DNA of 64,000 bases from an uncultured Chloroflexia bacterium (GTDB taxonomy: Bacteria > Chloroflexota > Limnocylindria > Limnocylindrales > CSP1-4): assembly GCA_963817745.1 (NCBI GenBank), contig CAWFPC010000008.1:67009-131008 (forward strand), written 5' to 3'. Each line of letters begins with the position of its first letter. Position 1 is the stretch's first letter. The position numbers were made by a program, and so were the translations under genes. The notes under the pieces were generated by a model, which was given only the letters and a program-made list of their open reading frames with translations, searched no databases and was not told where the DNA came from. Below, in pieces: positions 7,326 to 39,630 of this stretch.

Positions 7326-7440
7326 GGGAGCGACATCCTATCAGCCGACGACGTGGGACTCGTGCGGGAATGGGTCATCACAAGACGACAGGCGCGTTGC
7401 ATCCGTGACGATGTCCCCGACGTCCGTGTTCCCCGCTGGG

Positions 7441-8436: not shown

Positions 8437-8438
8437 GT

Positions 8439-22997: not shown

Positions 22998-24488
22998 ATG
23001 CAGGAGCCGCTTATCCCGGTGACTGGCCCCGTACCCGGTGGGTCCGAGCGAGGCACGGGCGCGCCGTCGCGGTCGACCGGGACGCAGGGAGCCGTTGGCG
23101 CGATCCTGATCATCCTCGCGCTCGGGCTCGCCCTCCGCCTCATCATCGCATACCTGCTCCCAGGCTCCGGGTTCGAGGTCGACCTCCAGGCGTTCCGCTT
23201 CTGGGCGCACAACCTCGCCACGGAAGGCCTGCACGGCTTCTACGAGCGCGATTTCTTCCACGACTACACGCCCGGCTACCTGTACGTCCTGTGGCTGGTC
23301 GGCCTGGCCGCGCAGGCGATGGAGAGCGGGGTCGGCGATCTGATCAAGATCCCGCCGATCCTCGCCGACCTCGCGATCGGGTGGCTCGTCTGGTCGATGG
23401 TCCGCGAGCTGGGTGGGCGCGATCGCCTCGCCCTCGCTGCCGGCGCGGTCGCGGTCTTCAATCCGATCTCGTGGTTCGACAGCGTCGTGTGGGGGCAGGT
23501 CGATGCCTTCGGGGTCGTCTTCGTCCTGCTCGCGTTGCGAGAGCTCTGGCGTGACCGCCCGGAACGCGCGGCGATCTTCACGGTCATCGCCGCGATCATC
23601 AAACCGCAGCTCGGCATCCTGGTCCTGCTCGTCGCGGTCGTCACGATCCGGCGGGCTCTGTGGCCGACCGGCGGCGGTGGACGGCAGGTCAGCGCGCAGC
23701 CGTGGCGGATCGTGACGACCGGTCTCGCAGGCTTCCTCACGGCGGTCGTCGTGTGCCTGCCGTTCGGGCTGTCGGTCATCGAGTTCACCGCGGAGGCGCC
23801 CTTCGTGCGCTCCGGCCTCGTCGAGCAGATCGCCGTGGCGGGTGGCGGCTACCCGTACGTGACCGTGAACGCGTACAACCCCTGGGCGTTGATCCCCTCC
23901 GAGACCGGCGAGACGCTGGCCAACGCCGGCGCCTGGGTGTGCGATGCGGCCGGGATGCCGGCTGCCACCTGCGGCGCCGGCGTCGCGGTGTTCGGCGCCA
24001 TCCCGGCGGTCGTCCTGGGCGCCGTCCTGCTGGTCCTCGCGATGGGGCTGATCCTGTGGATCGCGGCACGCCACCCCGACCGGCTGACGCTGCTGGTCGC
24101 CCTCGCGCTGCTCGCCCTCGCCTTCTTCGTCGTCCCGACGCGCGTCCACGAGCGCTACGGCTTCCCGTTCTTCGCCATGGGGGCGATCCTCTTCGCCGTG
24201 TCCGGTCGCTGGCGGATCGCGTACGTCGTCCTGTCGATCGCGACGTTCGCGAACATGTACGTCGTCCTGACCACGCTCTACCCCGACAACCCATCGGTCG
24301 AGGATTGGCTCGGGATCGGCGGTCTCCTCCGCTCCGAGCTCGGCGTGACGACGGTCGCCCTGGTCCACGGTGCCGTCTTCATCTGGGGCGCTGGCGCAGC
24401 TCCGCGATCGGGGCCCGGCAACGGCTGGCCGACGAGCTCGTCGCTGCCAGCGGCCCGATCCGGCGCGATGGCCGGCGGGCCGCGCTGA
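22998..24488 (+). CDS. GT-C-fold membrane glycosyltransferase (DUF2029/GT87-like mannosyltransferase); C-terminus uncertain
   Basis: MQEPLIPVTG..., polytopic, with RLIIAYLLPGSGFEVDLQAFRFWAHNLATEGLHGFYERDFFHDYTPGYLYVLWLVGL. Transcribed divergently from the three minus-strand glycosyltransferases. Confidence 0.55.
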   Translation: MQEPLIPVTGPVPGGSERGTGAPSRSTGTQGAVGAILIILALGLALRLIIAYLLPGSGFEVDLQAFRFWAHNLATEGLHGFYERDFFHDYTPGYLYVLWLVGLAAQAMESGVGDLIKIPPILADLAIGWLVWSMVRELGGRDRLALAAGAVAVFNPISWFDSVVWGQVDAFGVVFVLLALRELWRDRPERAAIFTVIAAIIKPQLGILVLLVAVVTIRRALWPTGGGGRQVSAQPWRIVTTGLAGFLTAVVVCLPFGLSVIEFTAEAPFVRSGLVEQIAVAGGGYPYVTVNAYNPWALIPSETGETLANAGAWVCDAAGMPAATCGAGVAVFGAIPAVVLGAVLLVLAMGLILWIAARHPDRLTLLVALALLALAFFVVPTRVHERYGFPFFAMGAILFAVSGRWRIAYVVLSIATFANMYVVLTTLYPDNPSVEDWLGIGGLLRSELGVTTVALVHGAVFIWGAGAAPRSGPGNGWPTSSSLPAARSGAMAGGPR

Positions 24489-24744
24489 TCGACGCCGCGG
24501 GATCCGGGTCGCCGCCGGCCGAGGATCGGACGTGACCGGCATCGTCACCGCTGCCCGAGCCGTCCCCGCCGTCGCCCGCCGTGGTCGGCGATCGCGAGCG
24601 GGGCTGCCGGGGCTGGGTCGAGCATGCGCCGTGTCGGCTCCGCTGGCGCTGGTGCCCGCGCCCGCCGGATCTGCCGGATCCGCCGCGGCCGTGTCCGGCG
24701 CGTCGGCCGCGACGATCGCCGCCGCGCCGGCGCCGATCGTCCGG

Positions 24745-27700
24745 ATGCCCAGCTGGGCGCCGACCACGACCTTCGCCGACCTCGGATTCGTCGGCTGGTT
24801 CCGCGCTCGCTTCCGCGATCAACCGATCCGGCCCGACCGCAGCCGGCTGCTCGTCGGCGAGCGTGGCGGCCGCTTCGACCGCCTCGACGTGTGGATCCTC
24901 ATCGTCCTCCTGCTGGCCACGTTCGGCCTTCGCCTGTTCCGGCTGGCGGAGCCCTACCAGATGCACTTCGACGAGGTCTATCACGCACGGACCGCGACCG
25001 AGTTCCTGCAGTCGTGGCGCTACGGCATCGACAAGGAGATCTACGAATGGACGCATCCGCACCTGGCCAAGTACGCGATGGCGGGCGGGCTCGTCCTCTG
25101 GGGCGCGGACCATGTCGATGGCGAGAGCGAGCTCGGCGTGCCGGCACGCGCGGCCATCATCGAGCCACGCCGCGACGATCCCGAGGCGCCCGGCGACCGC
25201 GCCGGTGAGCGTCTCCATATCGCGACCGGCGACGAGATCCGGACCTTCGACCTGCGCACCCGCGAGCACGTCGGCACCATCGCGGCGGTCGGCTCGTCGG
25301 CGCTCGCCTACGACCAGGAGGCGCTCCAGCTCGTCGTCGGCTTCGATGACGGACGCATCGGCACCAGCGGCGTCGAGGGACTGTTCGCGGATGCGGCGTC
25401 GGGTGCCGTCCTCGACGACATCGCCGACCTTGCGGTCGTGGACCACCCGGTCCGGCACCTGCTGGTGGCCGACGGCGGGGCCACGATCATCGCCGCCTCG
25501 GACGACCAGCTGACGGCCGTCGACAGCGAGACCGGCGAGGTCCTGTTCACCGAAGGCGATGGCCGGGATCGCCGACCTGTCGGCGGGAGGCACCGGGGCG
25601 ACCATCGTGGCCGATCCGGCGGCCGTCGAGGATCCGGCGGCGGTCGCGGCACGCCTCGCCGAGATCACCGAAGGCGACGCCGCCGACCTCGAGGCGCGCC
25701 TGACGGAGGGCACCGGCGCGCAGGTCGTGCTCGGCATCCCGGGTGACAAGCTGACCCGCACCGAGCTCGACACCGCGCTGGAGGCCGGCGAGCTCGACGG
25801 GCGTCGACATCGTCGATCTCCCGCGGGTCGCCGTCGCGATGGCGGACGGCGTCACGTTCATCGATCCGACGACGGGCGGGGTCATGACCAGCATCGCGAT
25901 GGCCGGCGGCGCGCACGGGATGGCGATGATCCTGGACATCGGCGATCCGAAGCTGTACGTGACCGCCGGCGACACCGTCGAGCCGCGGTACGAGGTCGTC
26001 GCCGTCGGTGGCGACTCGGCCGTGGACGGACCCCGACACCTGCGGGCGAACACGTTGCCCGGTCTCGGCAGCCGCGTCGCGTACGACGACGCGAGCCAGC
26101 AGGTCCACATCCTGGGCCACGTGCCGGACGGCGGGGCCGACAGCCCGTGGACGGTGTATGTCATCGAGCCGCACGCGGAGGACGCGGTCTACGCGGATGC
26201 GGCCCTGCCGGTCGAGATGGAGCCGACGGCCTGGGCCATGGACGTGGAGGCGCGCTACGCCAGCGACGACCGCCAGCAGCTGCTCGTGTTCGGCGCGGAC
26301 GGCGCCAACGTGAGCATCGACGTCGGCTCGCACGCGTTCGCCTGGCGTCTGCCGGGCGTCATCGCGGGCGTGCTCATGGCCGCCTGCCTGTACCTCCTCG
26401 CCCGGATCCTGTTCCGGCGGCGGCTCGTCGCGGGGATCGTCGCCGCGCTCGTGCTGCTCGACGGGATGCTCTTCGTCCAGTCGCGGATCGGGATGAACGA
26501 CGTCTACGTCGGGCTGTTCATCATGGCCGCGTACACGGTCTTCGCCGCGGTCTGGACGGGCTGGTGGCGCGGCCGGTCCGCGTTCTGGGTGGCGATGCCG
26601 GTGATCGGCGTGCTGCTCGGTCTCGCGCTCGCATCGAAGTGGGTCGCGGCCTATGCCATCGGGGCGCTGGTGCTGTTGCTGCTCGCCCGCAGCGCCCTCG
26701 GTCGGGCGGTCGCGATCCTGGGGCTCATCGGCATCACGAGCGTCCTCGGCTACATGGCGATCAGCGTCCCGGAGGGGGAGGGGATCGGCAACCTGACGTT
26801 CCTGATCATCATGGTCGGGCTGACGCTGGTGGCGACGGTGGTCAACGTCCTCCATCCGGTCGCCTGGTCCGATGACGAGATGCGCTTCGCGCTGCTCGCA
26901 CCGGCGGCGCTCGGGTGTCCTCGTGTTCTTCGGGGCGCTCGGGACCGGTCAGCTCGATCGCGAGATCGTGCTCGGCCCGGTCACGGTGACCCCGCTGCTC
27001 GTCGGCCATCGCCCTGTCGGCGGGCTCGCTCGTCGTCTACGCGATCTTCTGGGCGAGCGGCCGGGTGGGGTTCGGGCCACTCGCGCCGCCGCCCGGCTCC
27101 GGACGACCCGATCCGCCTGCTGGAGCCGCCCGAGCCCTGCCCCGACGGCTGGCTGCGGCCGGGCTGGCTCGCCGGGCTGCCCGTGGTCTGGGCCGCCGCG
27201 TGCCTCCTGGTCGTCCCGATCGTGGTCTACGTCGTCTCGTACATCCCGTGGGCGCTGCATCGAGAACCACCAGCTCTGGGAGGGCTGGCCGGCCGGTCAC
27301 GACGGGCAGACGCTCCTGGCCCTGACGCAGCAGATGTACGGCTACCACAACGGGTTGTCCAGCGCGCACGCGGCGTCGTCGCCGTGGTGGGCGTGGCCGT
27401 TCGATCTGAAGCCCGTCTGGTTCTACCAGGACAGCTTCGCCGGGAACACGAGTGCCGCGATCTACGATGCCGGCAGCCTCGTGATCTGGTGGTTCGGGGT
27501 CGCGGCGATCGCCTTCGCCTCGATCATGGCGTACCGCCGCAAGAGCCTCGCCCTGGCGCTCATCACGGTCGGCTTCGCCGCCCAGTGGATCCCGTGGGCC
27601 CGGATCGATCGCGCCGCGTTCCAGTACCACTACTACACCGCCCTGCCGTTCCTGATCCTGGCCCTCGCCTACCTCGTCGCCGAGCTGTGGCACGGCGCGT

Positions 27701-28520
27701 CGCGCCGGACGTGGGCGATGGCCAGGATCGCGGCGGCCGTCGCGATCATCGCCCCGGCGGCGATGTGGCTGTTCTCACGGCCGCTGTGCGCGTTCGTGGA
27801 GGTCACATCGGTCAACCCGGGTTCGCAGGCGTGTCCGGCCGTGATCCCCGAGGCGGTCATCACCGTCCGCACGATCGGGCTGCTCGTCGTCGTGTTGATC
27901 GGGGCGATCGCGCTGATCCGGGCCGTGCTCGCGCTGCAGCGGCCCCCCGATCCCGATGCGCTCGACGCGGGCGGCGTGACCGCGGGTGGGCTGCGCTCGC
28001 TCGTCATCTCGGCGATCGGTGTGGCGATCGGGTTCGCCGCGGTCGCGCTGCTCCCGGACACCGCGGTCCTGACGTTGACCAGCATCCCGGTCGAGCCGAT
28101 CGCGCTCATCGTCGGCCTGCCGCTGGCGCTACCTCGCGCTGCAGGTGTTCGCCTCGCGCGACGCCCGCCGATTCGTCACGGGCTACATGGTGGCCGTGGT
28201 GGGCTGGTTCGTCGATCGTGTACCCGAACATCTCGGCGCTGCCGCTGCCGTCGGCCGTCGTGAACGCGTACCAGGGCCTGCTGCCGACCTACCTGTACGC
28301 GTTCCAGTTCCCGGTGAGCACGGCCAGCCGGGCGGTGCCCGACCCGCTGCTCAGCCCCACGCTGCTGATCCTCGCCGCGGGGATCACGGTGACCTGTCTC
28401 GTGCTCGCCTACTCCGCGTGGGTCTGGCGGCTGGCACTCGCGGAGTCGAAGGCACCGACCGGCTCCGAGGCGGGCGAGGCGGACACGCCCGACGGTCTCG
28501 CGCGCAGCGGCGGCGCCTGA
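24745..28520 (+). CDS. Giant (~1250 aa) PMT-family (GT39) protein O-mannosyltransferase with a ~430-aa beta-propeller-like insertion in loop 1 and a C-terminal 4TMC-like region; at least 4 frame changes
   Basis: TM1 and loop-1 motifs HFDEVYHARTATEF / THPHLAKY. Then repeated ~40-aa blade-like units (…LVVGFDDGRIGTSGV…LLVADGGATIIAASDDQLTAVDSETGEVLF…YVTAGDTVEPRYEVVAVGG…). Then the PMT core (LLDGMLFVQSRIGMNDVYVGLFIMAAY) and the 4TMC-type segment (SSPWWAWPFDLKPVWFYQD). Frames switch near 25560, 25840, 27240 and 28150. Confidence 0.6.
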
Positions 28521-28529
28521 GGGATCGTC

Positions 28530-29673
28530 GGCCGCGAAACCGCTCGGCAGCGTGCCGTTGGCCGCCAGGCGACGGATGACGAAGCCGTAGTACTCCTCGA
28601 CCTTGGCGGTGACGCGCGGCCAGCTGAACTCCTCCGCGCGCGCCTGGCCCGCGGCGCCCATCTGCTCGCGGAGCGCCGGGTCGCGCAGCAACCGATCGAT
28701 CGCGATCGCCAGCGGCCGCGGCTCGCGCGGCGGCACGAGCATGCCCTCGCGGTCACGACGCACGACGCCCTTGTAGCCGTGGATGTCCGACGCGACGATC
28801 GGGGTCCCGGCGGCCATCGCCTCGAGCAGCACGATCCCGAACGACTCGCCGCCGGTCGCCGGGGAGGCGTACACGTCGGCCGTCCGGAAGAGCTGGGCCT
28901 TCTCGGCGTCCGACACGCGTCCCAGGAACTCGACCTCCTGCAGCCCGCGGGTCGCGACGTAGCGCCGCGCCTCGCGCTCCTGCGGCCCGGAGCCCACGAC
29001 GAGGAGCCGCGACCCGGAGCCGGTCTTGCGCAGGATCCGGTGCGCCTTGAGCAGCGTCAGCAGGCCCTTGCGCGGCTCGTGCCGCCCGACGAACAGGACG
29101 TTGGGCGTGCCGTCCTGCCAGCGGGCGATCGGGACCGCGTTCGCGTAGCGCGCGATATCGACGCCGTTGGGGATGACCTTGTAGTCGCCGGGGAAGAACC
29201 GATCGATGAAATGCCGCGCCGCGGCGCTCACCGCGATGCGGCCGTGGAGCCGGCCCGGCGTACCCGCGCAGGGCCCGGCTGCCGAACTCGTACGACGGCG
29301 AGAAGCCCGCGAACGCGTGGAACGTGGCGATGTTGACGCTGGTCGATTCGCGCAGCAGGAACAGCGACAGGAACGGGATGAACGGCTCGTGGAAGTGCAG
29401 GACGTCGAACCGTTCGCGCTCCAGCATGTCGCCGATCTGGCCGAGGTAGCGCGGCGAGAACGTCAGCGTCCCGACGGACGCGTTGATCGGCACGGAGAAC
29501 CCGACGCCGAGCCGGATGATGTCGCCCTCGGACGAGCGCTGCGGTCCGTGGCTGGCGGTGATGATCCGGACGTCGTGGCCGCGCAGGCGCAGGTTCTCGT
29601 ACAGGTAGCGGACGTGCTGCGCGACCCCGCCGTTCTCGGGGTAGATGTACGGGCAGACGAGACCGATCTTCAT
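28530..29673 (-). CDS. GT4-family glycosyltransferase, PimA-like mannosyltransferase; frameshift near 29230, 3' end approximate
   Basis: N-terminal half MKIGLVCPYIYPENGGVAQHVRYLYENLRLRGHDVRIITASHG. C-terminal half has GRHEPRKGLLTLLKA...ASPATGGESFGIVLLEAMAAGTPIVASDIHGYKGVV, the GT4 EX7E region. As read, the ORF would run antisense into the PMT gene, so the true stop is probably near 28530. Confidence 0.7.
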
Positions 29674-30508
29674 GCGTCGTCCAGCCGGTCGGTGCGCCGC
29701 GGCCGGCCCCGCGGGCTCGTAGCGCGGCGGTCGCACGCGCCCACCCGGGTAGCCGTGGTCGCGCCCGGTGCCGTCCCGCCGCAGCCGGCCGCCGACCTCG
29801 TCGCGTGCATCCAGCGCGCGTTTGCGCAGCTGCCGCCCGAACACCCCGACCTGGCCGGCCGTGCCGTGGAACGAGCCACCGTGCGTCGTCGCGCCCGTCT
29901 CGATCGCCCGCCGAAGGTCGGCCGCCGTCCGGCCGTCGAAGGTCGTCCAGCCCGCTGCCGATCGCGTCGAGGGCGTGGGCGTCGCTGTTCCCGACCCGCG
30001 CCAGGCCATGCTGCTCGGCGAAGCGCACGACGCGCGCGTGCCATGGGCGCCCGAGCGCGGTCGGGTTGAACGCCTCGATCGCGTCGGGGTGGACGTCGGG
30101 ATCCGGGTCGTCGAGCAGGCGGCGGATGACCCAGCCCTGGGCGCACAACGGGAACGGGACGAGCGGATGCGCCGGGATCGCGAGCCCGCCGGCCGCATGC
30201 ACCGCGGCGATCGTCGAACGCAGCGAGCGGTACGGCCGGATCGGACGATCGAGGTAGAGCGCCAGCAGGTGCCCGCCCAGGGTCGTCACCTCCTCGCCGA
30301 CGACGACCTCCACGCCGAGCCCGCGATCGGCCGCGATCGCCTGCGCGGCGAGGGCCGCATCGATCCGTTCGTGGTCGGTGATGGCGATGACGTCGAGGTC
30401 GCCGCGGGCCGCGACGTGGTCCAGGATCGCGACGACGTCGGCGGTCCCGTCGGACGCGACGGTGTGGATGTGGAGATCGGCCCGGCCCGGGCGGTCGGGG
30501 TCGCTCAT
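29670..30508 (-). CDS. PHP-domain metal-dependent phosphoesterase (TrpH/YciV-like)
   Basis: MSDPDRPGRADLHIHTVASDGT...IAITDHE...GNSDAHALDAIGSG. After a late frame change the +2 frame ends ...RLDDA* with TGA overlapping the pimA-like ATG (ATGA). Confidence 0.7.
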
Positions 30509-31483
30509 GCGACGCGGGCCTCCGGCGCCGCTGCCGGCGCCTCCGCCTCGGCCGCCTCGAGATCGGGCCAGATCGGGAAGAAGACCGCCCACCACTGCTC
30601 GGGCGCGTCCTCGACGATGCGCTCGAACGCACGGGCGATCGCCTCGGTCGTCGCGGTGACCCGTTCGCGGCGCTTGCCGTCGAGCGGGATGGCGATGGGC
30701 TCCAGCCGACCGCGATAGCGACCCCGACCGGCTCGCCGCACGCCGACGACGTACGCCCTGCACGTCGGCCTCGACCGCGAGCATGGCGGGCCCAAGGGGG
30801 AGCGCGGCCGGGGCGCCGAACAGCGTGGTCAGCGTCCCGCCGCCGGTGAGGTCGCGATCGCCGACCAGGCCCACGCTGCTGCCCGCCCGCAGCGCCGCCA
30901 GCAGCTCGCGGCGCGCCGCGCGGAGACCCACGATGCGGACGCCCGCGGCCCCGCGGGTCCGCACGAACCAGTCCTGCAGCCCCTGGTCGTCGATCAATTC
31001 CATCGGCGCGACCGCGCCCCCGACGCGACTCGCGAGCAGCAGCGCGGGCAGCTCGATCGCCCCGAAATGGAGGCCGACGAAGATGACCGGGCCGCCGCTG
31101 AAGGCCGCGTCGACGACGTCCGGCGTCTCGACGAGCATGAGGCGGTCGATGTCGCCTGGTCCCAGCGCCGGGGTGCGGGCGACCTCGAGGTAGTACAGCG
31201 CCGCGTGGCGGAATGCCCGTTTGACGAGTCGCTCCAGGGCTCGTGGGTCCGTCGCCGCGGCGCGGGCCGCCGCCGACCCACGCTCTCGCGCGGCGAGGTC
31301 GACCGCGACCCGGCGCAGGTTCCGGCGCGCCTGTGCCGCGCGATCGGGTGCGAACCGGTACCAGGCGTCGCCGGCGAGCTCCGCCGCACGGATGAGCGGC
31401 GCCTCGGGCAGGTGGCAGACGAGCCACGACCCGCCGATCAGCAGGCGACCGCGCAGCCACGAGCCCACGCCGCGCCGGGTCAT
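30505..31483 (-). CDS. LPLAT-family acyltransferase, PatA/HtrB-like (copy 2)
   Basis: MTRRGVGSWLRGRLLIGGSWL...VIFVGLHFGAIELPALLLA (HX4D-type motif)...PIAIPLDGKRRERVTATTEAIARAFERIVEDAPEQWWAVFFPIW. Frameshift near 30795. Confidence 0.65.
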
Positions 31484-31486
31484 GGC

Positions 31487-32514
31487 GGGCCGGGGTCCGG
31501 CGTGCCGGCCTGCATCAGGAGGCGCGCGGCGCTCGAGATCGGCCGCCTCCTCGGCGGTCGCCGGCCAGATCGGCTTGAAGCTGTACCACTGCTCCGGCGC
31601 GGCCGCGATGCTCAGCGCCAGCGCGTCGGCCATCGCCTGGCTCGCGCGCTGGAGCTCGGCCGGATCGGCCGACGTGAGGTCGATCGGTCCGGCCCAGGTG
31701 ACGCTGAACGTGCCGTCGGCGAGCCGGCGCGTCGTGACCGGGAGGATCCGCGCGCCGGTCTTGGCCGCGAGCGTGGCCGGTCCGGCGGGCAGCGTGGTCC
31801 AGGCACCGAACAGGCGGACCGGGATGCCGTCCGCGCGATAGCCCCAGTCCACGAGCAGCGCGAGCATCTCGCCGCGGCGCAGGACGTCGTAGATGCGGCG
31901 CAGGTTGCGCCAGGCGATGACGCGGACGCCCCAGGATTCGCGCTCCGCGCGCAGGTGCGCGAACAGCTCGGGGAACGACGAGTCGTCGGCGATGACGCTG
32001 ATCGGCATGCCATGGCGGGCGATGGCGGCGGCCACGGCATCGTTGTTGCCGACGTGACCCACCGAGAAGATGAGCCCGCCGCCGGCAGGGTTCCCCGTCC
32101 ACAGGCGCCGGATGTCGTCGGCGTCGATATCGGGCACCAGGGCGGCCCGCGTGTCGGGCGGAGCGCCGGCAGTCGCATGAGCTCGACGAGGTAGCGGCCG
32201 TAGCCGTAGTAGGCGCGCAGGGCGACGGCGCGCACACGTCGATCGCCCTGGGGAAGGCCCAGCACGTGGCCGAAGTTGCGATCCGACCAGTGGCGCTTGG
32301 TCCCCCAGGCGAGATAGGACGCCTGCGACAGCCGGCCGATCACGGCCGCCGCGAAGTCGGCCGGCAGCGTCTGCAGGAGCCAGGCAGTCGCCTTGTAGGC
32401 GACGACGGCGACGCGCTCGACGATGCGCGGACGCTGGCCGCCGCGGCGATGGGGTGCCTCGAGGGGCCGTTCGGGCGCCCTCGGGGCCACGCGCGGTTCG
32501 TTGCCGACGGTCAC
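31487..32514 (-). CDS. LPLAT-family acyltransferase, PatA/HtrB-like (copy 1, tandem paralogue); frameshift near 32140, 3' end approximate
   Basis: N-terminus [10 protein letters not shown]...[13 protein letters not shown]...[16 protein letters not shown]-terminal half ...[31 protein letters not shown]...[41 protein letters not shown]...[12 protein letters not shown]. Confidence 0.6.
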
Positions 32515-33753
32515 GACGCCGCGGCGGTCTCGACCTTGGCGCGAGCGCCCGCGAGCCTGCGGAGCTTGCGCTTCTCCGGCTTCTCGGTGCCCACCAGCGT
32601 CTCGGAGTCATCGCCGCGGATGAACGCTTCCACCCGGTTGAACGCGATGTCGTCGTGGATCTGGTGCGGCGGGCTCTTCATGAAGTACGCCGAGGGCGCC
32701 ACGAGCGTGCCGCTCAGGCCGCGATCCAGCCCGAGCTTGAGGCAGCGGATGGCGTCCGTGATGACGCCCGCGCTGTTGGGGCTGTCCCAGACCTCGAGCT
32801 TGAGCTCCGCGTTGAGCGGCACGTCCCCGAAGGTCGTGCCCTCCATCCGGATGTAGCACCACTTGCGATCGAGCAGCCACGGCACGTGGTCGCTGGGGCC
32901 GACGTGGACGTCGTCGGGGTCGAGCTCGTAATCGAGCATCGAGGTGACCGCGTTGGTCTTGGAGATCTTCTTGGACTCGAGTCGCTCGCGTTCGAGCATG
33001 TTGAGGAAGTCGGTGTTGCCGCCGAAGTTGAGCTGGTACGTCCGGTCGAGGCGGACGCCGCGATCCATGAACAGGCGGGTCAGCACGCGGTGGCTGATCG
33101 TCGCGCCGACCTGGCTCTTGATGTCGTCGCCGATGACCGGCAGGCCGGCCGAGGCGAACCGCCGCTGCCAGTACGGCTCGCGACCGATGAACACCGGGAT
33201 CGCGTTGACGAAGCCCGACACCCGCGGCCAGCGCCTGCTCCGCGTACCACTTGGTCGCCTCCTCGCTGCCGACCGGCAGGTAGGAGACCATGACGTCGAC
33301 CTCGCGCTCCTTGAGGATGCCGACGATGTCGGCCGTCTCGCCCGGCGCCTTCTCGATGATCTGGCTGAGGTACTTGCCGAGACCGTCGTGGACCATGCCG
33401 CGCTCCACGGTCACCCCGGTCCGCTTGACCTTGTGGAAGGTGTACGTGTTGTTCGGCTTCGTGTAGATCGCCTCGGCGAGGTCCTTGCCGACCTTGTTCT
33501 TGTCGATGTCGAAGGCGGCGACGAAGTCGATGTCGCGGACGTGGTAGCCGCCGAGGTTGACGTGCATCAGCCCGGGGACGAAGTCGTCGTCCGCGGCATC
33601 CTCGTAGTAGTAGCGCCCCTGGACGAGGCTGCTCGCGCAGTTGCCGACGCCGACGATCGCGACGCGGATCTTGCCGTCGCCGCGTCGGGCGGAGCCCGCC
33701 CAGGTGTTCGACGGCGTCGCGCCGTTCTTGCCGTTGCTGCCGTTCTTGCTCAC
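32511..33753 (-). CDS. ino1: myo-Inositol-1-phosphate synthase
   Basis: [27 protein letters not shown]... is the hallmark Ino1 NAD-binding N-terminus. The C-terminal half (...[28 protein letters not shown]...) is in a second frame (shift near 33220). GTG start overlaps the pgsA stop (GTGA). Confidence 0.85.
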
Positions 33754-34472
33754 GTGTTCGGTTCTCCGCTGCTCGCCGGCGAGCCGGCATCTGGGGTCGT
33801 GGACTGTCGTTTGGCCTGGGCACGGACGTGGACGATCCGCTGGATGACGGTGATGGTGGCGCCGAGGGTGATGATCCCGAGGGCGATGAACAGGGCGAGC
33901 AGGCCGGGCGCGATGGCCCCGCCGCCGGCTCCCTCGCCGCCCGTGGTCGGCGTCGTGCCGAGCAGCCCCGCGAGGAGGAGCCCAAGGCTCAGGATGACCA
34001 GGCGGATCTCGCGCGGCATGATCCCGACGGCCGCCATGCCGGTGCCCTCGGTGAACCCGAGTCCCTCCGACTTGGCCCGCGCGTAGCTGACCATGACGGC
34101 CGACCCGAGGGCGGCGGCCGCCAGGAGCGGGCCGTCGGCCACGCCCACGGCCTGGAGCCCGGCGACGATGCCGATGTAGACGATGACCTCGCCGGCCCGA
34201 TCGAAGACCGAGTCCATGAACGCGCCGAGCTTGCTGACCTGGCCGGTCGCCCGGGCGAGCGTCCCGTCGAACATGTCGAAGACGCCGCCGACGAAGACGA
34301 CGATCCCGCCGATCAGCCATTGCTGCATCCCGAGCAGGATCGCGCCGACCACGGTGATGCCGAAGCCGATCAGGGTCAGCCCGTCCGGCGTCAGCCCGGC
34401 CCGGCCCATCGCGAGGGCGATCGGCTCGAAGATGGCCTTGACGCGTGAGCGGGACTCGTTGGAGATGGTCAC
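33750..34472 (-). CDS. pgsA: CDP-alcohol phosphatidyltransferase, phosphatidylinositol(-phosphate) synthase-like
   Basis: CDP-OH-P transferase motif [28 protein letters not shown] plus 5-6 TM helices. GTG start at 34472 with preceding sequence [17 protein letters not shown]. Confidence 0.8.
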
Positions 34473-34475
34473 GAG

Positions 34476-34778
34476 GCCGACCCGAGCTCGGCGAGGCCGA
34501 GGATGGCGCGCTCGCGCTCGGCGACCTCGCCGAACGCCTCGGGGCGGAGCGTGCAGATGGTCTCGCGTCCCGACGCGGCGGGTGGCGACCAGGCCGGCCA
34601 CGCGGAGCCGCTTGAGGTGATGGCTCACGAGCGGCTGCGACAGGCCGACGTGGCGGATGAGCTCGGCCACGCTGGCCTCACCCTCGGCCAGGCGGCGGAC
34701 GATGCGCAGGCGGTTCACGTCGGCGAGCGCCTTGTGGAAGGCGCGCAGGTCGCGGAGGTCGTCCGGCTGGAGGACCAT
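34476..34778 (-). CDS. ArsR/SmtB-family transcriptional regulator; 3' end unresolved (frameshift)
   Basis: [68 protein letters not shown] is the ArsR winged-HTH. Confidence 0.55.
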
Positions 34779-34845
34779 CGACGCGAGCGTCGAACGGATG
34801 CGGGCGGGCGTCGGCACGAGGGAGGGGACTCCTGGGGATGTCGTA

Positions 34846-34877
34846 TCAACGGCGGTTGATATCAACGAATGTTGATG
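34846..34877. promoter_or_regulatory. Two abutting perfect palindromes ATCAACggcgGTTGAT | ATCAACgaatGTTGAT, ~70-100 bp upstream of arsR; candidate ArsR/SmtB operator
   Basis: Seen directly in the sequence. ArsR-family repressors bind 12-2-12-type inverted repeats overlapping their own promoters (established knowledge). A role as the DyP transcription terminator cannot be excluded. Confidence 0.5.
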
Positions 34878-34911
34878 CTACGGCGCTCGAACCGCCGATG
34901 TCAAGGCCGGC

Positions 34912-36553
34912 TCAGGCGTCCCCGAGCGTGTCGCGCAGCGCGCTGATGGAGGGGCTGAAGAAGTAGCCGCCACCGGTCGGGATCACGAAGTCCTCCGTCG
35001 TCGTGATCGTGCCGACCGCGAGATCCCGCCCGAACAGGACGCACCTGCGCTGCCGGCCCTGGCCCGGATGGCCGTTCTGGCCGACGAGCATGTCGAACCC
35101 GCTCGGGCCACGAGGATTGATCGGGTCGTTCATCCAGTTCGTGGTCAGGAACTCGAACTGGTCGGCGATCGAGGTCTGGTACGACACGAACAGCAGTCCC
35201 CGGTCACCTGCCACCGGATCGGATCCGATCGGGATCGAGCGGCGGACCGAAGGGCAGTCCACGGCGGAGGATCCGGCGATCCAGCGCCGCCCGGGCACCG
35301 CCGAAGTCGTTCGACGACTCGCGTGGATTCACGTTCCGGATGTGCGCGGCGAGCGGGCACACGAGGCCGACCGGGTCGGGCTTCGCGTTCGACCACCGCC
35401 CGTTCGTCGTCGTGCCGTCGGTCAGCTCGAGCGTGCCGGACTCCGTCGCGTAGCCGAAGATGTTGTTCGCCTCCCGGTCGACGCCGAGATCCGGGTCGTC
35501 GCCGTCCGGGGCGCGACCGAGCGGGGCGCCACTCTTCCAGCGGCCGACCAGGGCGGCGGCCAGGCGGTCGCTCGTCCAGTCCTCGAAGCCGGGCTCGCGA
35601 CCGAGGTCGACCGCCGCGTCGTCGACGAAGCGCCAGAACGCGGCGACATCCTGGCGCAGCCGCCGGTAGACCACGTACGACCCGTTCCGGCTCCACGTCG
35701 GTCCCGCCTCCTTCACGGGACCCGGCACCAGCGGATCGGCGGACACGCCCGGATAGCCGAACACGAACTCGCCGGGCCAGATCAGCAACTGGCCGGGGAG
35801 GTCGTACAGCCAGGCGTCCGGGAGCTGGTGCGGGGCGATGACCCGGTGACCCAGGAAGTCGTCCGGCGCATCCGACAGCCGACCGCGCACACCGGGCTGG
35901 GAGATCCCGTCCTGGAAGCCGAAGTGCTCGGCGCCGATGTCGTCGAACTTGGCGCCGCGCTGTTCGTGGAGGACCGTCAGGCCGCCGGCGACGGCATCGG
36001 CACGCAGCGCATCGACCCCTTGCGCGACGTGGTCGGCCTGGTCGCCGGCCACGATGCACAGGACGTCGGCCTCGCGTTCCGGTCCGCCGACGACCCAGTT
36101 GGACCGGTGGCCTTCCGCATGCGGGATCGGTCGGGTCGCCGAGGAGCGACGACCGAGCGGCCAGGCCCGAGCCGGAACGCCTGATCCTCGAACTGGTCCA
36201 GGTCGGCGGCGAGCCGCGTGCGGCCGTCGGCCAGTCGCTGCAGGCCGGCGTAGCTGATGGCGATGTTCAGCCAGACGTCGTCGACGGCAGCCGGTACCGC
36301 GCCGACGCGCGCACCCTTCGGGCGGAGGGTCCGGGCCGCACGGACGAGCCGGCGAGAGGCCATGACCCCCTCCAGGGTCGTGACCTGGGGTGCGATCGCG
36401 CCGAGCCAGCGCCGCGCGCGATCCACGTCCTCGATCGCGAGGGCGACCAGGACCATGTTCGGCTTCATGAAGCCCGGGAGCGCGTTGCCCTGGATGTCGT
36501 GGACGTCCAGGACGGGTTCGAGCGGCGCGGTCCTGGTCGTGTCGGCCGTCATG
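34912..36553 (-). CDS. DyP-type haem peroxidase; 2 frame changes (~36100, ~35250)
   Basis: EHFGFQDGISQPGVRG (DyP GXXDG region), C-terminal LLFVSYQTSIADQFEFLTTNW...GTITTTEDFVIPTGGGYFFSPSISALRD, and N-terminus MTADTTRTAPLEPVLDVHDIQGNALPGF. Confidence 0.75.
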
Positions 36554-36639
36554 ACGCACGCGTCCAGCGGCGCGCTGGCGGAACGCTGCGCGGGAGCTCC
36601 GGCCGCGCGACCACGCGCGCCGAGGTGATGGCCTCGGGG

Positions 36640-37864
36640 TAATCGAAGATCGGGATCGATCCGGACGGACACGCCTCGCCGGCGAGGACCGAGAACACGA
36701 CCGACGGGTTCGCCGCGTCGGCGCACGCGCGATACGGCAGACCCGGCCGGTCGATTCCGGAAGCCGGCGCCCACCGCCGCGAGGCCCACGATCTTGATCG
36801 TCATGTGCTCGGCGAGCTGGCCGCCCGTCCGGATGGGCTCGCCACCGATGCGCAGGTCGCTGACCGTCAGCCCCTCGCCGGCCGGCACCTCGAACACGGC
36901 ACGGGCGACGAAGCCGGGCGTGCCGCGCACGATCCGGAACCAGTCGGGATCGATCGGCTCGTCGTTGGGCAGCGTCCAGCCGGTCATGTCGAGGTGGTCC
37001 ATGTACAGCCCGACCGGGTCCTGCAGCGTGACGGCGTATCCGAGCGCCGCGAGGTGGTTCACGCTCGCGCCGATCGTCGGATCGCTGCAGCGATCGTTCC
37101 CGCCGTAGCCGGCGCCGACGATCAGGGCGTCAGGATCGCCCGTCAGCCGCCGCTCCCGGGCGCGCAGGACCGTCGCATCGGCCCCGAGCGTGATCTCGGC
37201 CCGCAGCGTGTTGCTGGGATGCGTGAGGTGCATGATCCCGTCGACCGTGTTCCAGCGGTTGTAGGGGTCGTAGCGGCCGTCCCTGCGCAGGTCCGCCAGC
37301 TGCACGGACGGGTCGACATGCTCGCGATAGAGCTCGAGCAGGACCTGCGGGTCGCCCGGGAACGACGACGACGGCTGGTCCGGCGTCTCCGCCGGCAGGT
37401 CATCGCCGTGCAGGGCCTGCCAGTACTCCGGCGGCTCCGAGGTGAACGTGACGCGGACGATGCGCCCGGCGGCATCCCGCTCCACCCGCCACTCGCAGTA
37501 CTCGTCCTGGGGCCGGTAGAACGCCCGCGGCGACGCATCGGCGTGCACGGGCGGCGCGGAACCCTGACCCGCCACGCCCGCCCATCGACGCAGCGGCACC
37601 GGATCGTCGGCCGTGGCCAGCGCGGCGGCGCGTCCCACGCGTCGGCGAAGCGTGCCCGGGAACGCGTTCCAGGTGATCTCCTGCTCGATCGCGGGTCCGG
37701 CGGGCGTGCTCGTCGAGCTGGTCGTAGTACTGGCAGGGCTGGCCGTCGAGAGCGTCGGCCTGGCGTCCGATCGCCTCCGCGAACCAGCGCGAGACGGCAT
37801 CGCTCCACGTGCTCACGCTGCCCGGGGATCGCGTCGAAGTCGGTGAGATGCGCGGGCGGGTCAT
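36640..37864 (-). CDS. Conserved hypothetical protein immediately upstream of the DyP peroxidase; both ends uncertain
   Basis: ~400-aa ORF with protein-like composition (…YCEWRVERDAAGRIVRVTFTSEPPEYWQALH…DPYNRWNTVDGIMHLTHPSNTLRAEITLGAD…YGGNDRCSDPTIGASVNHLAALGYAVTLQDPVGLYMDHLDMTGW…). No family recognised. It shares a frame with DyP with no stop between them, which implies an indel. Confidence 0.35.
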
Positions 37865-37870
37865 GCATGT

Positions 37871-39630
37871 GTGTTCGCTCCCCCAGCTGATGACCTGCCC
37901 CGAGTCTACTGGCCTTCGGTCGGGTTATGGCCGACACTCGGGGCATGGCTCCCCGGTACGCGCTCGTGCTTGCTCGGCGTCTTCGGCACGGGGGTGTTCC
38001 TCGCCGGTCTCGAGCTCATGATCACGGCCGTCGCGCTGCCCTCGATCCTGGCCGACCTCGTCGTCGCCGATGGGTCCTCGGCCTGGGTCGAGCTGCGCCG
38101 GGCGAGCTGGATCATCAACGGCTACCTGCTCGTGTACATCGTGGTCATGCCGCTGGCCGGCGGCCTCGCGGACCTGTGGGGCGCCCGCCGCCTGTTCCTC
38201 GGTGCGCTGACGGTGTTCGTGGTCGGGTCCGCGCTGGCGGGCGCCGCCCAGGACCTCGACCAGCTCATCGCGGCGCGGCTGGTCCAGGCGGTCGGTGGCG
38301 GCGTCCTCGTGCCGGTCGGGACGGCGGCCGCTGCCCACCTGTACGACGGCCCGGCGCGGGCACGGGCGCTCGGGGTCATCGGCGCGCTCACGTTCCTCGG
38401 GATGGCCGCGGGACCGTTCCTGGGTGCCGCGATCCTGTCGACGGTCCAACCCGACGACGCGCTGGCCGCCGCCGGCCTCGCGGGCACGCGCGATCGCCGA
38501 CGTGTTGGCACCCGCCTGGCGCTGGATCTTCTACGTCAACGTGCCGATCGGCATCTGTGCGCTGGTGCTGGCCTGGGCCGCCTCGACCGGATGGGAGACG
38601 CCGCGTCGGCAGGGCCGGCTGGACGTGCTCGGTGCGGGGCTGTTCGGGCTCGCCCTCGCGGCCGGGCTCATCGCGCTGACGCTCGTCGGCAGCGCCGCGC
38701 CGGTCGTGGTCGATGCGCGCCGAACAGGCGGCCGGTGGCGGCCCCCTCGCCGGGCTCGATCCCACCGCCGTTTCGATCGCCCTGGGGGTCGTTGCGGTCG
38801 TCGCCACGATCCTGGCGATCTTGCGCGCCCTGCGCATCCCCGACCCGTTCCTCGACGTGCGCCTCTTCCGGCGTCTCGCGATCAGCAGCGCGGCGGTCGT
38901 GTCCCTGCTCACGGGGTACGCGTTCGCGACCGCGATCATCGGCGGGGCGGTCTTCGTCGATCGCGTGCTCTACGGCGGTCCGGACGACCAGCGGCTGGCG
39001 CTCGGCGCGCTGGCCGGCGCGACGGCGGTCGGGGCACTCGTCTCGGGCTTCCTCGTCCGCCTCGCGAGCTACCGGGTCGTGACCCTCATCGGCCTCGCCC
39101 TCAGCGTGGGCGGGCTCATCGCGATGTCGGCCTGGACGCCGAGCGTCGACATCGCCACCGTCGCGCTCGGTCTGGCGGTCTTCGGCCTGGGGTTCGGGTT
39201 GACGGTGACGCCACGGTCCACCGCGGCCGTGGAGGCGGCAGGCCGGACGGCGTTCGGGGCAGCCTCGTCGATCGTGACGGTCGCCCGGATGCTGGGCATG
39301 GCCGTCGGGCTCGCGATCCTGACGGCCTACGGCTCGACCACGATCGATCGGCTCTCGGCGCAGATCTACGCCACCCCGGACGCCTACCTCGCGATCATCC
39401 CCGAATCGCTGCGCGACCGTCCGTTGCGCGACCCGCTCGTCGTCGAGGCGCTCGAGTCCTGGGCGTCCCGTGAGGCGGCATCGATCATGGTCGGGCTGTT
39501 CGTCGTGGCGGCCGTCGTGACGGTCGCGGCCGCGCCCGCGGCGATCGCCCTCGGCGGCGGGTCGCGACGGGCCAGGACGGCGCGTATGCTGGCGCCCGAT
39601 GGCGACCCAGAACCCGGCCTCATCCTCTGA
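37871..39630 (+). CDS. MFS transporter (DHA2-like, ~14 TM); 2 frame changes (~38490, ~38720)
   Basis: LGVFGTGVFLAGLELMITAVALPSILADL..., conserved MFS motif region (LADLWGARRLFLGAL), and TM helices continuing across three frames. Confidence 0.7.

What the first reader, a model, noticed from the sequence alone, without database searches (positions are those of the whole stretch)
29670..30508. PHP-family phosphoesterase translationally coupled inside the ino1-pgsA-patA-pimA operon: candidate for the missing phosphatidylinositol-phosphate phosphatase
The minus-strand genes arsR, pgsA (CDP-alcohol phosphatidyltransferase), ino1 (inositol-1-phosphate synthase), two PatA-like acyltransferases, the PHP phosphoesterase and a PimA-like GT4 are packed with overlapping stop/start codons (GTGA, ATGA).

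In Actinobacteria, PI is made by a PgsA-type PIP synthase from CDP-DAG plus inositol-1-phosphate, followed by a dephosphorylation whose enzyme is not firmly assigned.

A metal-dependent PHP phosphoesterase sits exactly between the lipid acylation and mannosylation genes. That makes it a logical candidate for the PIP to PI step, or less likely for inositol-phosphate dephosphorylation. This role assignment is inference from gene context.
Basis: inference. Interest (0 to 1): 0.7.

Follow-up and report, generated by a model that had tools for sequence, protein, structure and literature searches.

The report
Candidate lipid phosphatase in PIM operon
A small metal-dependent PHP-family hydrolase sits inside a tightly packed operon for making phosphatidylinositol mannoside lipids in a soil Chloroflexota bacterium, and it is the only plausible candidate in that operon for the unassigned step that removes the phosphate from phosphatidylinositol phosphate, though this rests on gene context only.

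Summary
On the minus strand, ArsR, a PIP-synthase-like PgsA, Ino1, two PatA-like acyltransferases, a PHP/PHP_C hydrolase (30508-29670) and a PimA orthologue follow each other, and all six junctions have overlapping stop/start codons.

Two corrections:
- The organism belongs to Chloroflexota (class Limnocylindria), not Actinobacteria.
- The window carries many 1-nt indels typical of long-read assemblies. They break the PHP frame (839 nt). An intact 281-aa orthologue is 97% identical.

PatA-PHP-PimA synteny is kept in every informative one of 80 Limnocylindria species genomes. It recurs, with PgsA moved, in Ktedonobacterales, Dehalococcoidia and Dormibacteraeota (10 of 11 informative distant contexts).

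PgsA keeps both arginines that bind the phosphate of inositol phosphate, so a PIP intermediate is expected. No other hydrolase is in the operon. The PHP keeps all nine metal ligands. It lacks the insertion domain of TrpH/RNase AM and pAp phosphatases and scores far below their family thresholds.

Against this, only 15 of 60 PimA-anchored metagenome clusters carry the PHP, and its presence tracks the PatA module. No biochemical data exist.

Verdict: a good, testable, apparently unpublished candidate PIP (PI-3-P) phosphatase, confidence about 0.5. It does not answer the mycobacterial question.

The parts
29670..30508 (-). PHP + PHP_C metal-dependent phosphoesterase gene, the finding itself. The frame is broken in this assembly by +1 nt at 29953 and by -8 nt in the tail at 29701-29693.
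   Evidence: Pfam PHP_C scores 49.7 bits (cut-off 21.3) and PHP 23.7 bits on the frame-corrected protein. It is 97% identical to the intact 281-aa P0001. Indels were mapped. The AlphaFold2 model has pLDDT 91.3 and a PHP barrel fold.
28409..29673 (-). PimA orthologue (GT4, GDP-mannose:PI alpha-1,2-mannosyltransferase type). Its ATG overlaps the PHP stop (ATGA). The 3' end is uncertain because of indels at 29258 and 28526.
   Evidence: GT4 domains in two frames. The intact homologue from L082 matches M. smegmatis PimA 4n9w/2gej at E 2e-61 over its full length; the next family is at 1e-25. Junction shown.
30505..31515 (-). PatA-like acyltransferase 2. Its stop overlaps the PHP start (ATGA). The exact start is uncertain (ATG at 31515 or 31483), and there are indels at 31388, 31254 and 30760.
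   Evidence: Pfam Lip_A_acyltrans. The best NCBIfam hit for the L001/L082 orthologues is PIM acyltransferase PRK07920. Junctions.
31515..32514 (-). PatA-like acyltransferase 1. Its GTG start overlaps the ino1 stop (GTGA). Several indels.
   Evidence: Pfam Lip_A_acyltrans at 1.4e-47 over both copies. NCBIfam PRK07920 is the best hit for the L082 orthologue..
32511..33753 (-). ino1, myo-inositol-3-phosphate (= L-myo-inositol-1-phosphate) synthase. One +1 indel at about 33213.
   Evidence: Pfam Inos-1-P_synth at 8.4e-36. TIGR03450 scores 480 bits for the L001 orthologue..
33750..34472 (-). CDP-alcohol phosphatidyltransferase of the PIP/AIP-synthase type (pgsA).
   Evidence: Pfam CDP-OH_P_transf. 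Best NCBIfam hits are archaetidylinositol-phosphate synthase and PIP synthase, both below cut-off. Best PDB hits are the PIP synthases 5d92 and 6h53. The RxxR motif (PREIRL) and the QRIV arginine, equivalent to RsPIPS R153 and R191, are present.
34469..34817 (-). ArsR/SmtB-family regulator, first gene of the operon. Its stop overlaps the pgsA start (GTGA).
   Evidence: Pfam HTH_5 at 2.1e-15. NCBIfam HTH_metalloreg at 84 bits. Present in 57/57 Limnocylindria loci with enough flank.

Best explanation
The gene encodes a soluble or peripherally membrane-bound, metal-dependent PHP-fold phosphomonoesterase. It most likely removes the inositol-3-phosphate group from phosphatidylinositol phosphate, the product of the operon's PIP synthase, giving phosphatidylinositol. 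PimA then mannosylates PI, and the two PatA-type enzymes acylate the product.

Proposed pathway:
1. Ino1 makes inositol-3-phosphate.
2. PgsA joins it to CDP-diacylglycerol to give PIP.
3. PHP converts PIP to PI.
4. PimA converts PI to PIM1.
5. The two PatA enzymes give Ac(1-2)PIM1.

Shown here: the gene content, the translational coupling, the conserved synteny, the intact catalytic metal site, the PIP-synthase signature of PgsA, and non-membership of the nucleotide-specific TrpH clades.

Inferred: the substrate and the position of the step. The enzyme could equally act on mannosylated PIP.
For: 1. **One gene per step.** Every other enzyme of a PI-to-acyl-PIM pathway is present and assignable. 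PgsA best matches PIP/AIP synthases, PimA matches at E 2e-61, and PatA is the best NCBIfam hit. The PHP is the only hydrolase in the operon.
2. **A phosphorylated intermediate is expected.** PgsA keeps both arginines (RsPIPS R153/R191) that bind the phosphate of inositol phosphate. [quoted passage not shown]
3. **Synteny within Limnocylindria.** In 80 species genomes with PHP identity 55-86%, the counts are PatA2 75/75, PimA 79/79, PgsA 60/60 and Ino1 62/63.
4. **Synteny survives rearrangement.** The order Ino1-PatA-(PatA)-PHP-PimA-PgsA occurs in Ktedonobacterales, Dehalococcoidia and Dormibacteraeota and in other homologues at roughly 35-45% identity.
5. **Catalytic competence.** The ligands H13, H15, D20, H46, E73, H80, H114, D176 and H178 are invariant or nearly so in three alignments and align with the ligand motifs of Cv1693 and RNase AM. 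The model is confident, with pLDDT 91.3.
6. **Chemistry fits.** Characterised PHP enzymes hydrolyse phosphomonoesters such as histidinol phosphate and the 3'-phosphate of pAp (established knowledge; families listed).
7. **Precedent.** In Bacteroides the PIP phosphatase BT_1525 is encoded in the same cluster as the inositol-phosphate synthase and the PIP synthase (PMC9246714).
8. **Weak support.** A basic, partly amphipathic C-terminal helix is present in most members.
Against: - There are no biochemical or genetic data for any member.
- In clusters found through PimA, independently of the PHP, only 15 of 60 carry the PHP. Thirty are minimal Ino1-PimA-PgsA clusters flanked by housekeeping genes, and 10 have PatA without PHP. 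The phosphatase step is therefore often unlinked or done by something else.
- PHP presence tracks PatA (12/1/5/28). That could point to a role tied to acylation rather than to PIP synthesis, or it could simply reflect shared ancestry.
- One homologue (P0252) has no PI context.
- The PHP fold also hosts diesterases, nucleases and even an oxidative decarboxylase, PsfC, which appears among the structural neighbours.
- The membrane-binding evidence is weak, and there is no transmembrane segment.
Confidence: 0.5

Rival explanations
1. The PHP enzyme is an accessory phosphoesterase of the acylation module. It would act on some other phosphoester linked to PatA function or PIM remodelling, such as a lyso-lipid or phosphodiester head group, rather than on PIP.
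For: In PimA-anchored loci the PHP is almost only present when PatA genes are present (12 with both, 1 with PHP only, 5 with PatA only, 28 with neither). It always sits between PatA and PimA. Thirty Ino1-PimA-PgsA clusters do without it.
Against: No such step is known in PIM biosynthesis, whereas the PIP dephosphorylation step is known and unassigned. The association is not corrected for phylogeny. PHP occurs next to the GT4 without PatA in L162 and in the P0206 context, and with a single PatA in a Dehalococcoidia genome.
Confidence: 0.2
2. It is a soluble inositol-monophosphate phosphatase that supplies free inositol.
For: It is adjacent to the ino1-containing operon, and PHP enzymes hydrolyse small phosphomonoesters (families listed).
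Against: PgsA carries the two arginines specific for the phosphorylated acceptor, so free inositol is not needed and an inositol monophosphatase would drain the substrate. L052 keeps the PHP although ino1 is absent from that operon. The PHP sits between PatA and PimA, not next to ino1.
Confidence: 0.08
3. It is a TrpH/RNase AM-like nucleotide phosphoesterase (pAp, short RNA, or a nucleotide by-product such as CMP, GDP or CoA derivatives) that happens to ride in the operon. This is what automatic annotation says ('TrpH').
For: JGI names many members 'predicted metal-dependent phosphoesterase TrpH'. The closest solved sequences are RNase AM and Cv1693. The mycobacterial operon also carries a nucleotide-type hydrolase (Nudix Rv2609c; from my own knowledge, not checked here).
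Against: NCBIfam scores are 47.6 against a cut-off of 375 (RNase RNM) and 31.9 against 400 (pAp phosphatase). The roughly 86-residue insertion domain of those enzymes is absent: query residues 89 to 95 align to chain residues 84 to 171. The strict lipid-gene context across phyla is not expected for a housekeeping nucleotidase.
Confidence: 0.07
4. The PHP-fold protein carries out non-hydrolytic or non-phosphoester chemistry, such as carbamate or ester hydrolysis of the CehA/McbA type or PsfC-like oxidation.
For: The best NCBIfam hit is the CehA/McbA metallohydrolase domain at 68.8 bits. PsfC (7rty) is among the structural and sequence neighbours.
Against: The CehA/McbA score is below its cut-off of 80. 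The full nine-ligand trinuclear phosphoesterase site is conserved. No substrate for such chemistry is suggested by the operon.
Confidence: 0.05
5. In this genome the gene is a decaying pseudogene, because the frame is broken twice.
For: The interval is 839 nt, with +1 nt at 29953 and -8 nt in the tail.
Against: Every gene of the operon and its neighbours shows similar single-base indels. The near-identical assembly L001 has a different set of them (66 events in 14 kb). The corrected protein is 97% identical to an intact orthologue, and the 8-nt difference lies in a non-conserved tail.
Confidence: 0.03

Closest known systems
BT_1525, the phosphatidylinositol-phosphate phosphatase of Bacteroides thetaiotaomicron (PgpA family; PMC9246714)
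   Same: It catalyses the reaction proposed here (PIP to PI). It is encoded in the same cluster as the inositol-phosphate synthase and the PIP synthase.
   Different: The fold is unrelated: PgpA family versus PHP barrel. There is no Pfam or NCBIfam similarity. BT_1525 has genetic evidence (PIP accumulates in the deletion); the PHP has none.
TrpH/YciV clade of PHP enzymes: RNase AM (7ug9, 9etk) and Cv1693 3',5'-nucleoside bisphosphate phosphatase (2yb1)
   Same: Same PHP barrel and the same nine metal ligands. These are the closest solved sequences.
   Different: The protein here lacks their roughly 86-residue insertion domain and scores 8-13% of the equivalog thresholds. It has a PHP_C extension plus a basic C-terminal helix, and a lipid-gene context instead of a nucleotide context.
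TM0559 of Thermotoga maritima (2anu), a minimal PHP protein of unknown function
   Same: Best structural match over the whole length of the target (TM-score 0.73 normalised to the target; about 20% identity). Similar size and no insertion domain.
   Different: Function unknown and no PI context known; only about 20% identity.
Mycobacterial pgsA1-patA-pimA operon (Rv2612c-Rv2610c) and its unassigned PIP phosphatase (EphE proposed in 2026)
   Same: Same pathway logic and orthologous PIP synthase, PatA and PimA. The phosphatase step is still called 'long-sought'.
   Different: From my own knowledge, not tested here: the mycobacterial operon has no PHP gene and no ino1, and carries HIT-like and Nudix genes instead. 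EphE is an alpha/beta-hydrolase. The Chloroflexota operon adds ino1, a second PatA paralogue and an ArsR regulator.
PHP-type histidinol-phosphate phosphatases (HisK/HisJ; 2yxo, 4gyf, 3dcp)
   Same: PHP-fold phosphomonoesterases acting on a small alcohol phosphate. They show the chemistry is within the fold's repertoire.
   Different: Only a distant match (E of about 1e-4 or worse, TM-score about 0.37-0.4) and a different context.

Membership tests
PHP superfamily (Pfam PF02811 PHP / PF13263 PHP_C) | Sequence match to the Pfam models above the gathering score | tested here: met
   PHP_C scores 49.7 bits against 21.3 on the frame-corrected window protein. The PHP N-terminal model scores 23.7 against 26.4, just below, but PF02811 is among the precomputed hits of many orthologues.
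PHP superfamily (Pfam PF02811 PHP / PF13263 PHP_C) | Distorted (beta/alpha)7 barrel fold | tested here: met
   The AlphaFold2 model has pLDDT 91.3 and pTM 0.88. The top 38 Foldseek PDB matches (E up to 1e-3) are all PHP-domain proteins.
PHP superfamily (Pfam PF02811 PHP / PF13263 PHP_C) | Nine His/Asp/Glu ligands of the trinuclear metal site | tested here: met
   H13, H15, D20, H46, E73, H80, H114, D176 and H178 are invariant or at least 90% conserved in A1, A2 and A3. They align to the HxH, D, DH, E, H(P) and DxH motifs of 9etk, 7ug9 and 2yb1.
TrpH/YciV (RNase AM) and 3',5'-nucleoside bisphosphate phosphatase equivalogs | Score at or above the NCBIfam equivalog cut-off | tested here: not met
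   NF047791 scores 47.6 against 375, and NF041577 scores 31.9 against 400.
TrpH/YciV (RNase AM) and 3',5'-nucleoside bisphosphate phosphatase equivalogs | Insertion domain of about 85 residues between the third and fourth barrel strands | tested here: not met
   Profile positions 89 to 95 align to chain residues 84 to 171 of 9etk. Gaps of the same size appear against 7ug9 and 2yb1.
CehA/McbA family metallohydrolase (NF038032) | Score at or above the cut-off of 80 bits | tested here: not met
   68.8 bits for the window protein and 65.8 bits for the L082 orthologue. This is the best NCBIfam hit but is sub-threshold.
Bacterial PIP phosphatase (functional class; only characterised member is PgpA-type BT_1525) | Homology to BT_1525 / PgpA family | tested here: not met
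   No PgpA-type family appears among the Pfam or NCBIfam hits at E up to 0.1. If it is a PIP phosphatase, it is a non-homologous one.
Bacterial PIP phosphatase (functional class; only characterised member is PgpA-type BT_1525) | The organism's pathway produces PIP, meaning the CDP-alcohol transferase is a PIP synthase with both phosphate-binding arginines | tested here: met
   The RxxR motif (PREIRL) and the QRIV arginine align to RsPIPS R153 and R191 (residues defined in PMC4634129). The best families are AIP/PIP synthase at 129 and 115 bits, below the cut-offs of 180 and 170.
Bacterial PIP phosphatase (functional class; only characterised member is PgpA-type BT_1525) | Conserved genomic linkage with the PIP synthase and inositol-phosphate synthase | tested here: met
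   Limnocylindria: PgsA 60/60 and Ino1 62/63. Also seen in Ktedonobacterales, Dehalococcoidia, Dormibacteraeota and others.
Bacterial PIP phosphatase (functional class; only characterised member is PgpA-type BT_1525) | Present wherever the linked PI/PIM cluster is present | tested here: not met
   Only 15 of 60 PimA-anchored metagenome clusters have it.
Bacterial PIP phosphatase (functional class; only characterised member is PgpA-type BT_1525) | Hydrolysis of PIP to PI plus phosphate | not testable with these tools
   Needs an enzyme assay or lipidomics of a deletion or reconstitution.
Inositol monophosphatase family (IMPase/SuhB) | Sequence membership | tested here: not met
   No such family appears among the Pfam or NCBIfam hits.

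The most novel reading that the evidence does not exclude
The PHP enzyme is a dedicated PI-3-phosphate 3-phosphatase. The phosphate left by the PIP synthase is on the D-3 hydroxyl of inositol. In mycobacterial Ac2PIMs that same hydroxyl carries the second acyl chain, and the transferase responsible is unknown (PMC9490103). In Chloroflexota and Dormibacteraeota the PHP is co-inherited with a pair of PatA paralogues. The operon would therefore encode a complete cytoplasmic route to di-acylated PIM1: the PHP uncovers the 3-OH, and one PatA paralogue is an inositol-3-O-acyltransferase. This would give both a new PIP phosphatase family and a first candidate type for the unidentified inositol acyltransferase. 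It would also show that PIM-type glycolipids are widespread outside Actinobacteria.
Probability: 0.15. Interest if true: 0.8.

Novelty: new variant of a known kind. Interest (0 to 1): 0.6.

Why it matters
Bacterial and archaeal PI synthesis goes through PIP. The phosphatase is known only in Bacteroides (PgpA type, 2022) and was still described as 'long-sought' in mycobacteria in July 2026.

A PHP-family PIP phosphatase would be a second, unrelated solution to this step. It would give a concrete function to a large, mis-annotated ('TrpH') protein family that is abundant in soil metagenomes: thousands of clusters in Limnocylindria, Ktedonobacteria, Dehalococcoidia and Dormibacteraeota.

It would also complete a PI-to-acyl-PIM pathway in phyla where such glycolipids have not been described genetically. 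Cultured Ktedonobacteria do have PI as a major lipid.

The hypothesis is directly testable. The predicted substrate has the head group of PI-3-P, and E. coli lacks PI.

It does not resolve the mycobacterial enzyme.

Tried and rejected
- **PHP-GT4 'fusion' proteins** (P0124, P0254, P0262, P0132) looked like Rosetta-stone evidence. Their sequences contain long Arg/Pro-rich wrong-frame stretches, so they are frameshift read-throughs from error-prone assemblies. Rejected. The in-frame read-through from PHP into PimA in the window, seen after correcting the 29953 indel, is treated the same way.
- **Pseudogene reading** of the broken frame: rejected, because the indels are assembly-wide and differ between two 95.7%-identical assemblies.
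- **Alignment A1** (42 diverse sequences) was too diverse for the search for related loci, so the narrower A2 was used. As a result the genome scan returned only Limnocylindria. Wider taxa had to be reached through single look-ups.
- **Search for a cultured host** via cluster names gave only metagenome-assembled genomes.
- **The afdb50 fold library** was unavailable, so no UniProt organisms could be listed.
- **Alternative phosphatase in PHP-less clusters.** The minimal clusters are flanked by infB-rbfA-truB and purA, with no hydrolase. An MBL-fold hydrolase follows PgsA in only 2 of 80 loci, too few to argue for displacement.
- **C-terminal amphipathic helix** as a membrane anchor: the hydrophobic moments are mixed (0.3-0.9) and the helix is mostly basic, so this is only weak support.
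- **Literature searches** for any PHP/PI link, or for PimA in Chloroflexi, found nothing relevant.
Full report
**What is in the sequence**

The window is about 71% G+C. Six-frame ORF lists are crowded with spurious ORFs.

Pfam on the long minus-strand frames between 28.2 and 35.3 kb gives, in order of transcription:
- an ArsR-type HTH
- a CDP-alcohol phosphatidyltransferase
- myo-inositol-1-phosphate synthase
- two Lip_A_acyltrans domains
- PHP plus PHP_C
- a GT4 glycosyltransferase

Mapping through a near-identical public contig (L001, ENA ERZ25039504 contig_139981; 95.7% identity over 14 kb, collinear) gives these coordinates:

| Gene | Window coordinates (minus strand) |
|---|---|
| ArsR | 34817-34469 |
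| PgsA | 34472-33750 |
| Ino1 | 33753-32511 |
| PatA1 | 32514-31515 |
| PatA2 | ~31515-30505 |
| PHP | 30508-29670 |
| PimA | 29673-~28409 |

All six junctions overlap (GTGA, GTGA, GTGA, TGATG, ATGA, ATGA).

**Quality of the sequence**

The PHP interval is 839 nt, so it cannot be one ORF. Compared with L001, the window has an extra G at 29953 and is 8 nt shorter in the C-terminal tail.

The two assemblies differ by 66 indel events in 14 kb. Each repairs breaks found in the other. For example, ino1 is shifted at 33213 in the window, while the window is right and L001 wrong at 32729. Contig names of the 'contig_NNN' type and the many 'MFD' genomes among relatives point to long-read assemblies; that link is my inference.

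I therefore treat the frameshifts as errors. The frame-corrected protein is 97% identical to the intact 281-aa P0001.

**Organism**

The closest proteins and 80 of 80 related genome loci are from Candidatus Limnocylindria/Limnocylindrales or are labelled Chloroflexota. This is not an actinobacterium.

**Identity of the neighbours**

- **PgsA.** It best matches the archaetidylinositol-phosphate and PIP synthase models (129 and 115 bits, below the equivalog cut-offs) and the solved PIP synthases of Renibacterium and M. tuberculosis. It keeps the CDP-alcohol signature. In the 5d92 alignment it keeps both arginines (RxxR = PREIRL, and QRIV). [quoted passage not shown] A phosphorylated lipid intermediate is therefore expected.
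- **GT4.** It is a clear PimA orthologue: E 2e-61 over the full length to M. smegmatis PimA, with the next family at 1e-25.
- **Acyltransferases.** Both best match the PIM acyltransferase PatA model.

**The PHP protein itself**

- PHP_C is above threshold, and PHP is just below it.
- The nine canonical metal ligands are conserved in close, medium and distant alignments. They align to those of RNase AM and Cv1693.
- The AlphaFold2 model is confident (pLDDT 91.3). Its PDB neighbours are all PHP proteins: the RNase AM PHP domain, TM0559, BVU_3505, PsfC, BAD_1165, and the PHP domains of DnaE and PolC.
- It is not an orthologue of the nucleotide-specific enzymes. NCBIfam scores are 47.6 against 375 and 31.9 against 400. 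The roughly 86-residue insertion domain of those enzymes is missing.
- The C-terminal helix is basic and variably amphipathic.

**Forward synteny test**

In 80 species-level Limnocylindria genomes (PHP identity 55-86%), the following are found wherever the flank allows:

| Gene | Present / informative loci |
|---|---|
| PatA2 | 75/75 |
| PatA1 | 71/71 |
| PimA | 79/79 |
| PgsA | 60/60 |
| ArsR | 57/57 |
| Ino1 | 62/63 |

Look-ups of homologues at roughly 35-45% identity gave these contexts:

| Homologue | Lineage | Context |
|---|---|---|
| P0133 | not named | ArsR-PgsA-Ino1-PatA-PatA-PHP-GT4 |
| P0166 | Dormibacteraeota | Ino1-PatA-PatA-PHP-GT4-PgsA |
| P0182, P0306 | Ktedonobacterales | ArsR-Ino1-PatA-PatA-PHP-GT4-PgsA |
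| P0210 | not named | Ino1-PatA-PatA-PHP-GT4-PgsA |
| P0214 | not named | PatA-PatA-PHP-GT4 |
| P0234 | not named | PatA-PatA-PHP |
| P0206 | not named | GT4-PHP |
| P0465 | Dehalococcoidia | Ino1-PatA-PHP-GT4-PgsA |
| P0252 | not named | no PI genes |

Linkage that survives changes in gene order across classes and phyla is strong evidence for a shared function.

**Reverse test**

I anchored on PimA instead, using alignment A4 against metagenome contigs. Sixty loci have at least 900 nt upstream. They fall into four groups:
- 15 have the PHP directly upstream of PimA.
- 10 have PatA but no PHP.
- 30 are minimal Ino1-PimA-PgsA clusters, set between infB-rbfA-truB and purA, with no hydrolase.
- 5 have none of these.

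Among loci with at least 2 kb upstream, PHP and PatA co-occur 12/1/5/28 (Fisher p = 1.8e-6, not corrected for relatedness). The PHP is therefore a lineage-specific component that travels with the acylation module. It is not a universal part of PI clusters.

**Interpretation**

The most economical reading is that the PHP is the PIP phosphatase of this operon. The pathway needs that step, every other gene has an assignable step, the PHP is the only hydrolase, and its chemistry fits. Bacteroides sets a precedent for a cluster-encoded PIP phosphatase.

The reverse test lowers confidence. It leaves room for a different, acylation-linked role. It also suggests a refinement. The phosphate of PIP sits on inositol D-3 (from the nomenclature: L-Ins-1-P is the same compound as D-Ins-3-P). 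That hydroxyl carries the second acyl chain in mycobacterial Ac2PIMs, and the enzyme responsible is unknown. A 3-phosphatase co-inherited with two PatA paralogues would fit.

**What is known**

- The phosphatase was 'as-yet-unidentified' in 2015.
- It was identified as the PgpA-type BT_1525 in Bacteroides in 2022.
- It was still 'long-sought' in mycobacteria in July 2026, with EphE proposed.
- Full-text searches found no paper linking PHP enzymes to PI synthesis, nor PimA to Chloroflexi.
- Cultured Ktedonobacteria have PI as a major polar lipid, along with unidentified glycolipids and phospholipids.

**Verdict**

It is relevant to Chloroflexota and Dormibacteraeota rather than to Actinobacteria. 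It would be a new functional variant within the known PHP superfamily.

Noticed in passing
window 24000-38000 (whole window likely): Single-base indels are dense relative to a 95.7%-identical public contig: 66 events in 14 kb. Almost every gene here appears frameshifted (ino1, both patA genes, PHP, pimA, the PMT gene, the DyP gene). The other assembly has its own, different set. Gene calls and 'fusion' proteins from such assemblies are unreliable.
   Followed up: yes
window 25559-28520 (+) and L001 10981-17516: A PMT-family GT-C glycosyltransferase (PF02366/PF16192) lies convergent to pimA. In L001 a GT87-family protein lies a few kb further on. GT87 is the family of the polyprenol-phosphate-mannose-dependent mannosyltransferases of mycobacteria (from my own knowledge). 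This hints that the PIM anchor may be extended into a lipomannan-like glycan in Limnocylindria.
   Followed up: no
window 34912-37868 (-): Immediately upstream of the operon is a roughly 983-aa protein combining DUF8225, DyP_N and a DyP peroxidase C-terminal domain (L001 gene call). It is also frameshifted in the window.
   Followed up: no
L103-L182 (e.g. L129, L147, L176 at 5800-8900): A minimal three-gene cluster, Ino1-PimA-like GT4-PgsA, lies between infB-rbfA-truB and purA. It has no PatA, PHP or other hydrolase, and is common in marine and sediment metagenomes (30 of 60 informative loci; 44-58% G+C in the four examples checked). Its taxon and lipid product are unknown.
   Followed up: partly
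L107 4885-5652 and L159 ~6400-7147: In two PHP-less clusters an MBL-fold hydrolase (Lactamase_B_2; the two are 42% identical) directly follows PgsA. In L107 a second CDP-alcohol transferase follows it. It may be an alternative phosphoesterase in the same slot, but it was seen in only 2 of 80 loci.
   Followed up: partly
L094 4033-4797 (-): The P0210 genome has a second, divergently transcribed PHP-domain gene (254 aa) directly upstream of ino1, in addition to the PHP inside the operon.
   Followed up: no
L052 (JBJOLT010000032.1): This is the one Limnocylindria-type locus where ino1 is missing from the operon (ArsR-PgsA-PatA1-PatA2-PHP-PimA). The PHP is retained.
   Followed up: no
window 3464-3839 (+): Rfam finds a full-length tmRNA (117.6 bits, E 2.7e-45), but ARAGORN reports no tmRNA or tRNA anywhere in the 64 kb. 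The cause may be indel errors or an unusual tmRNA.
   Followed up: no
window 29673-29953 (-): After the single extra G at 29953 is removed, the PHP frame runs without a stop into the pimA ATG, an apparent PHP-PimA fusion. I regard this as an artefact of the 8-nt difference in the tail. It explains why similar chimeric proteins populate the protein databases.
   Followed up: partly
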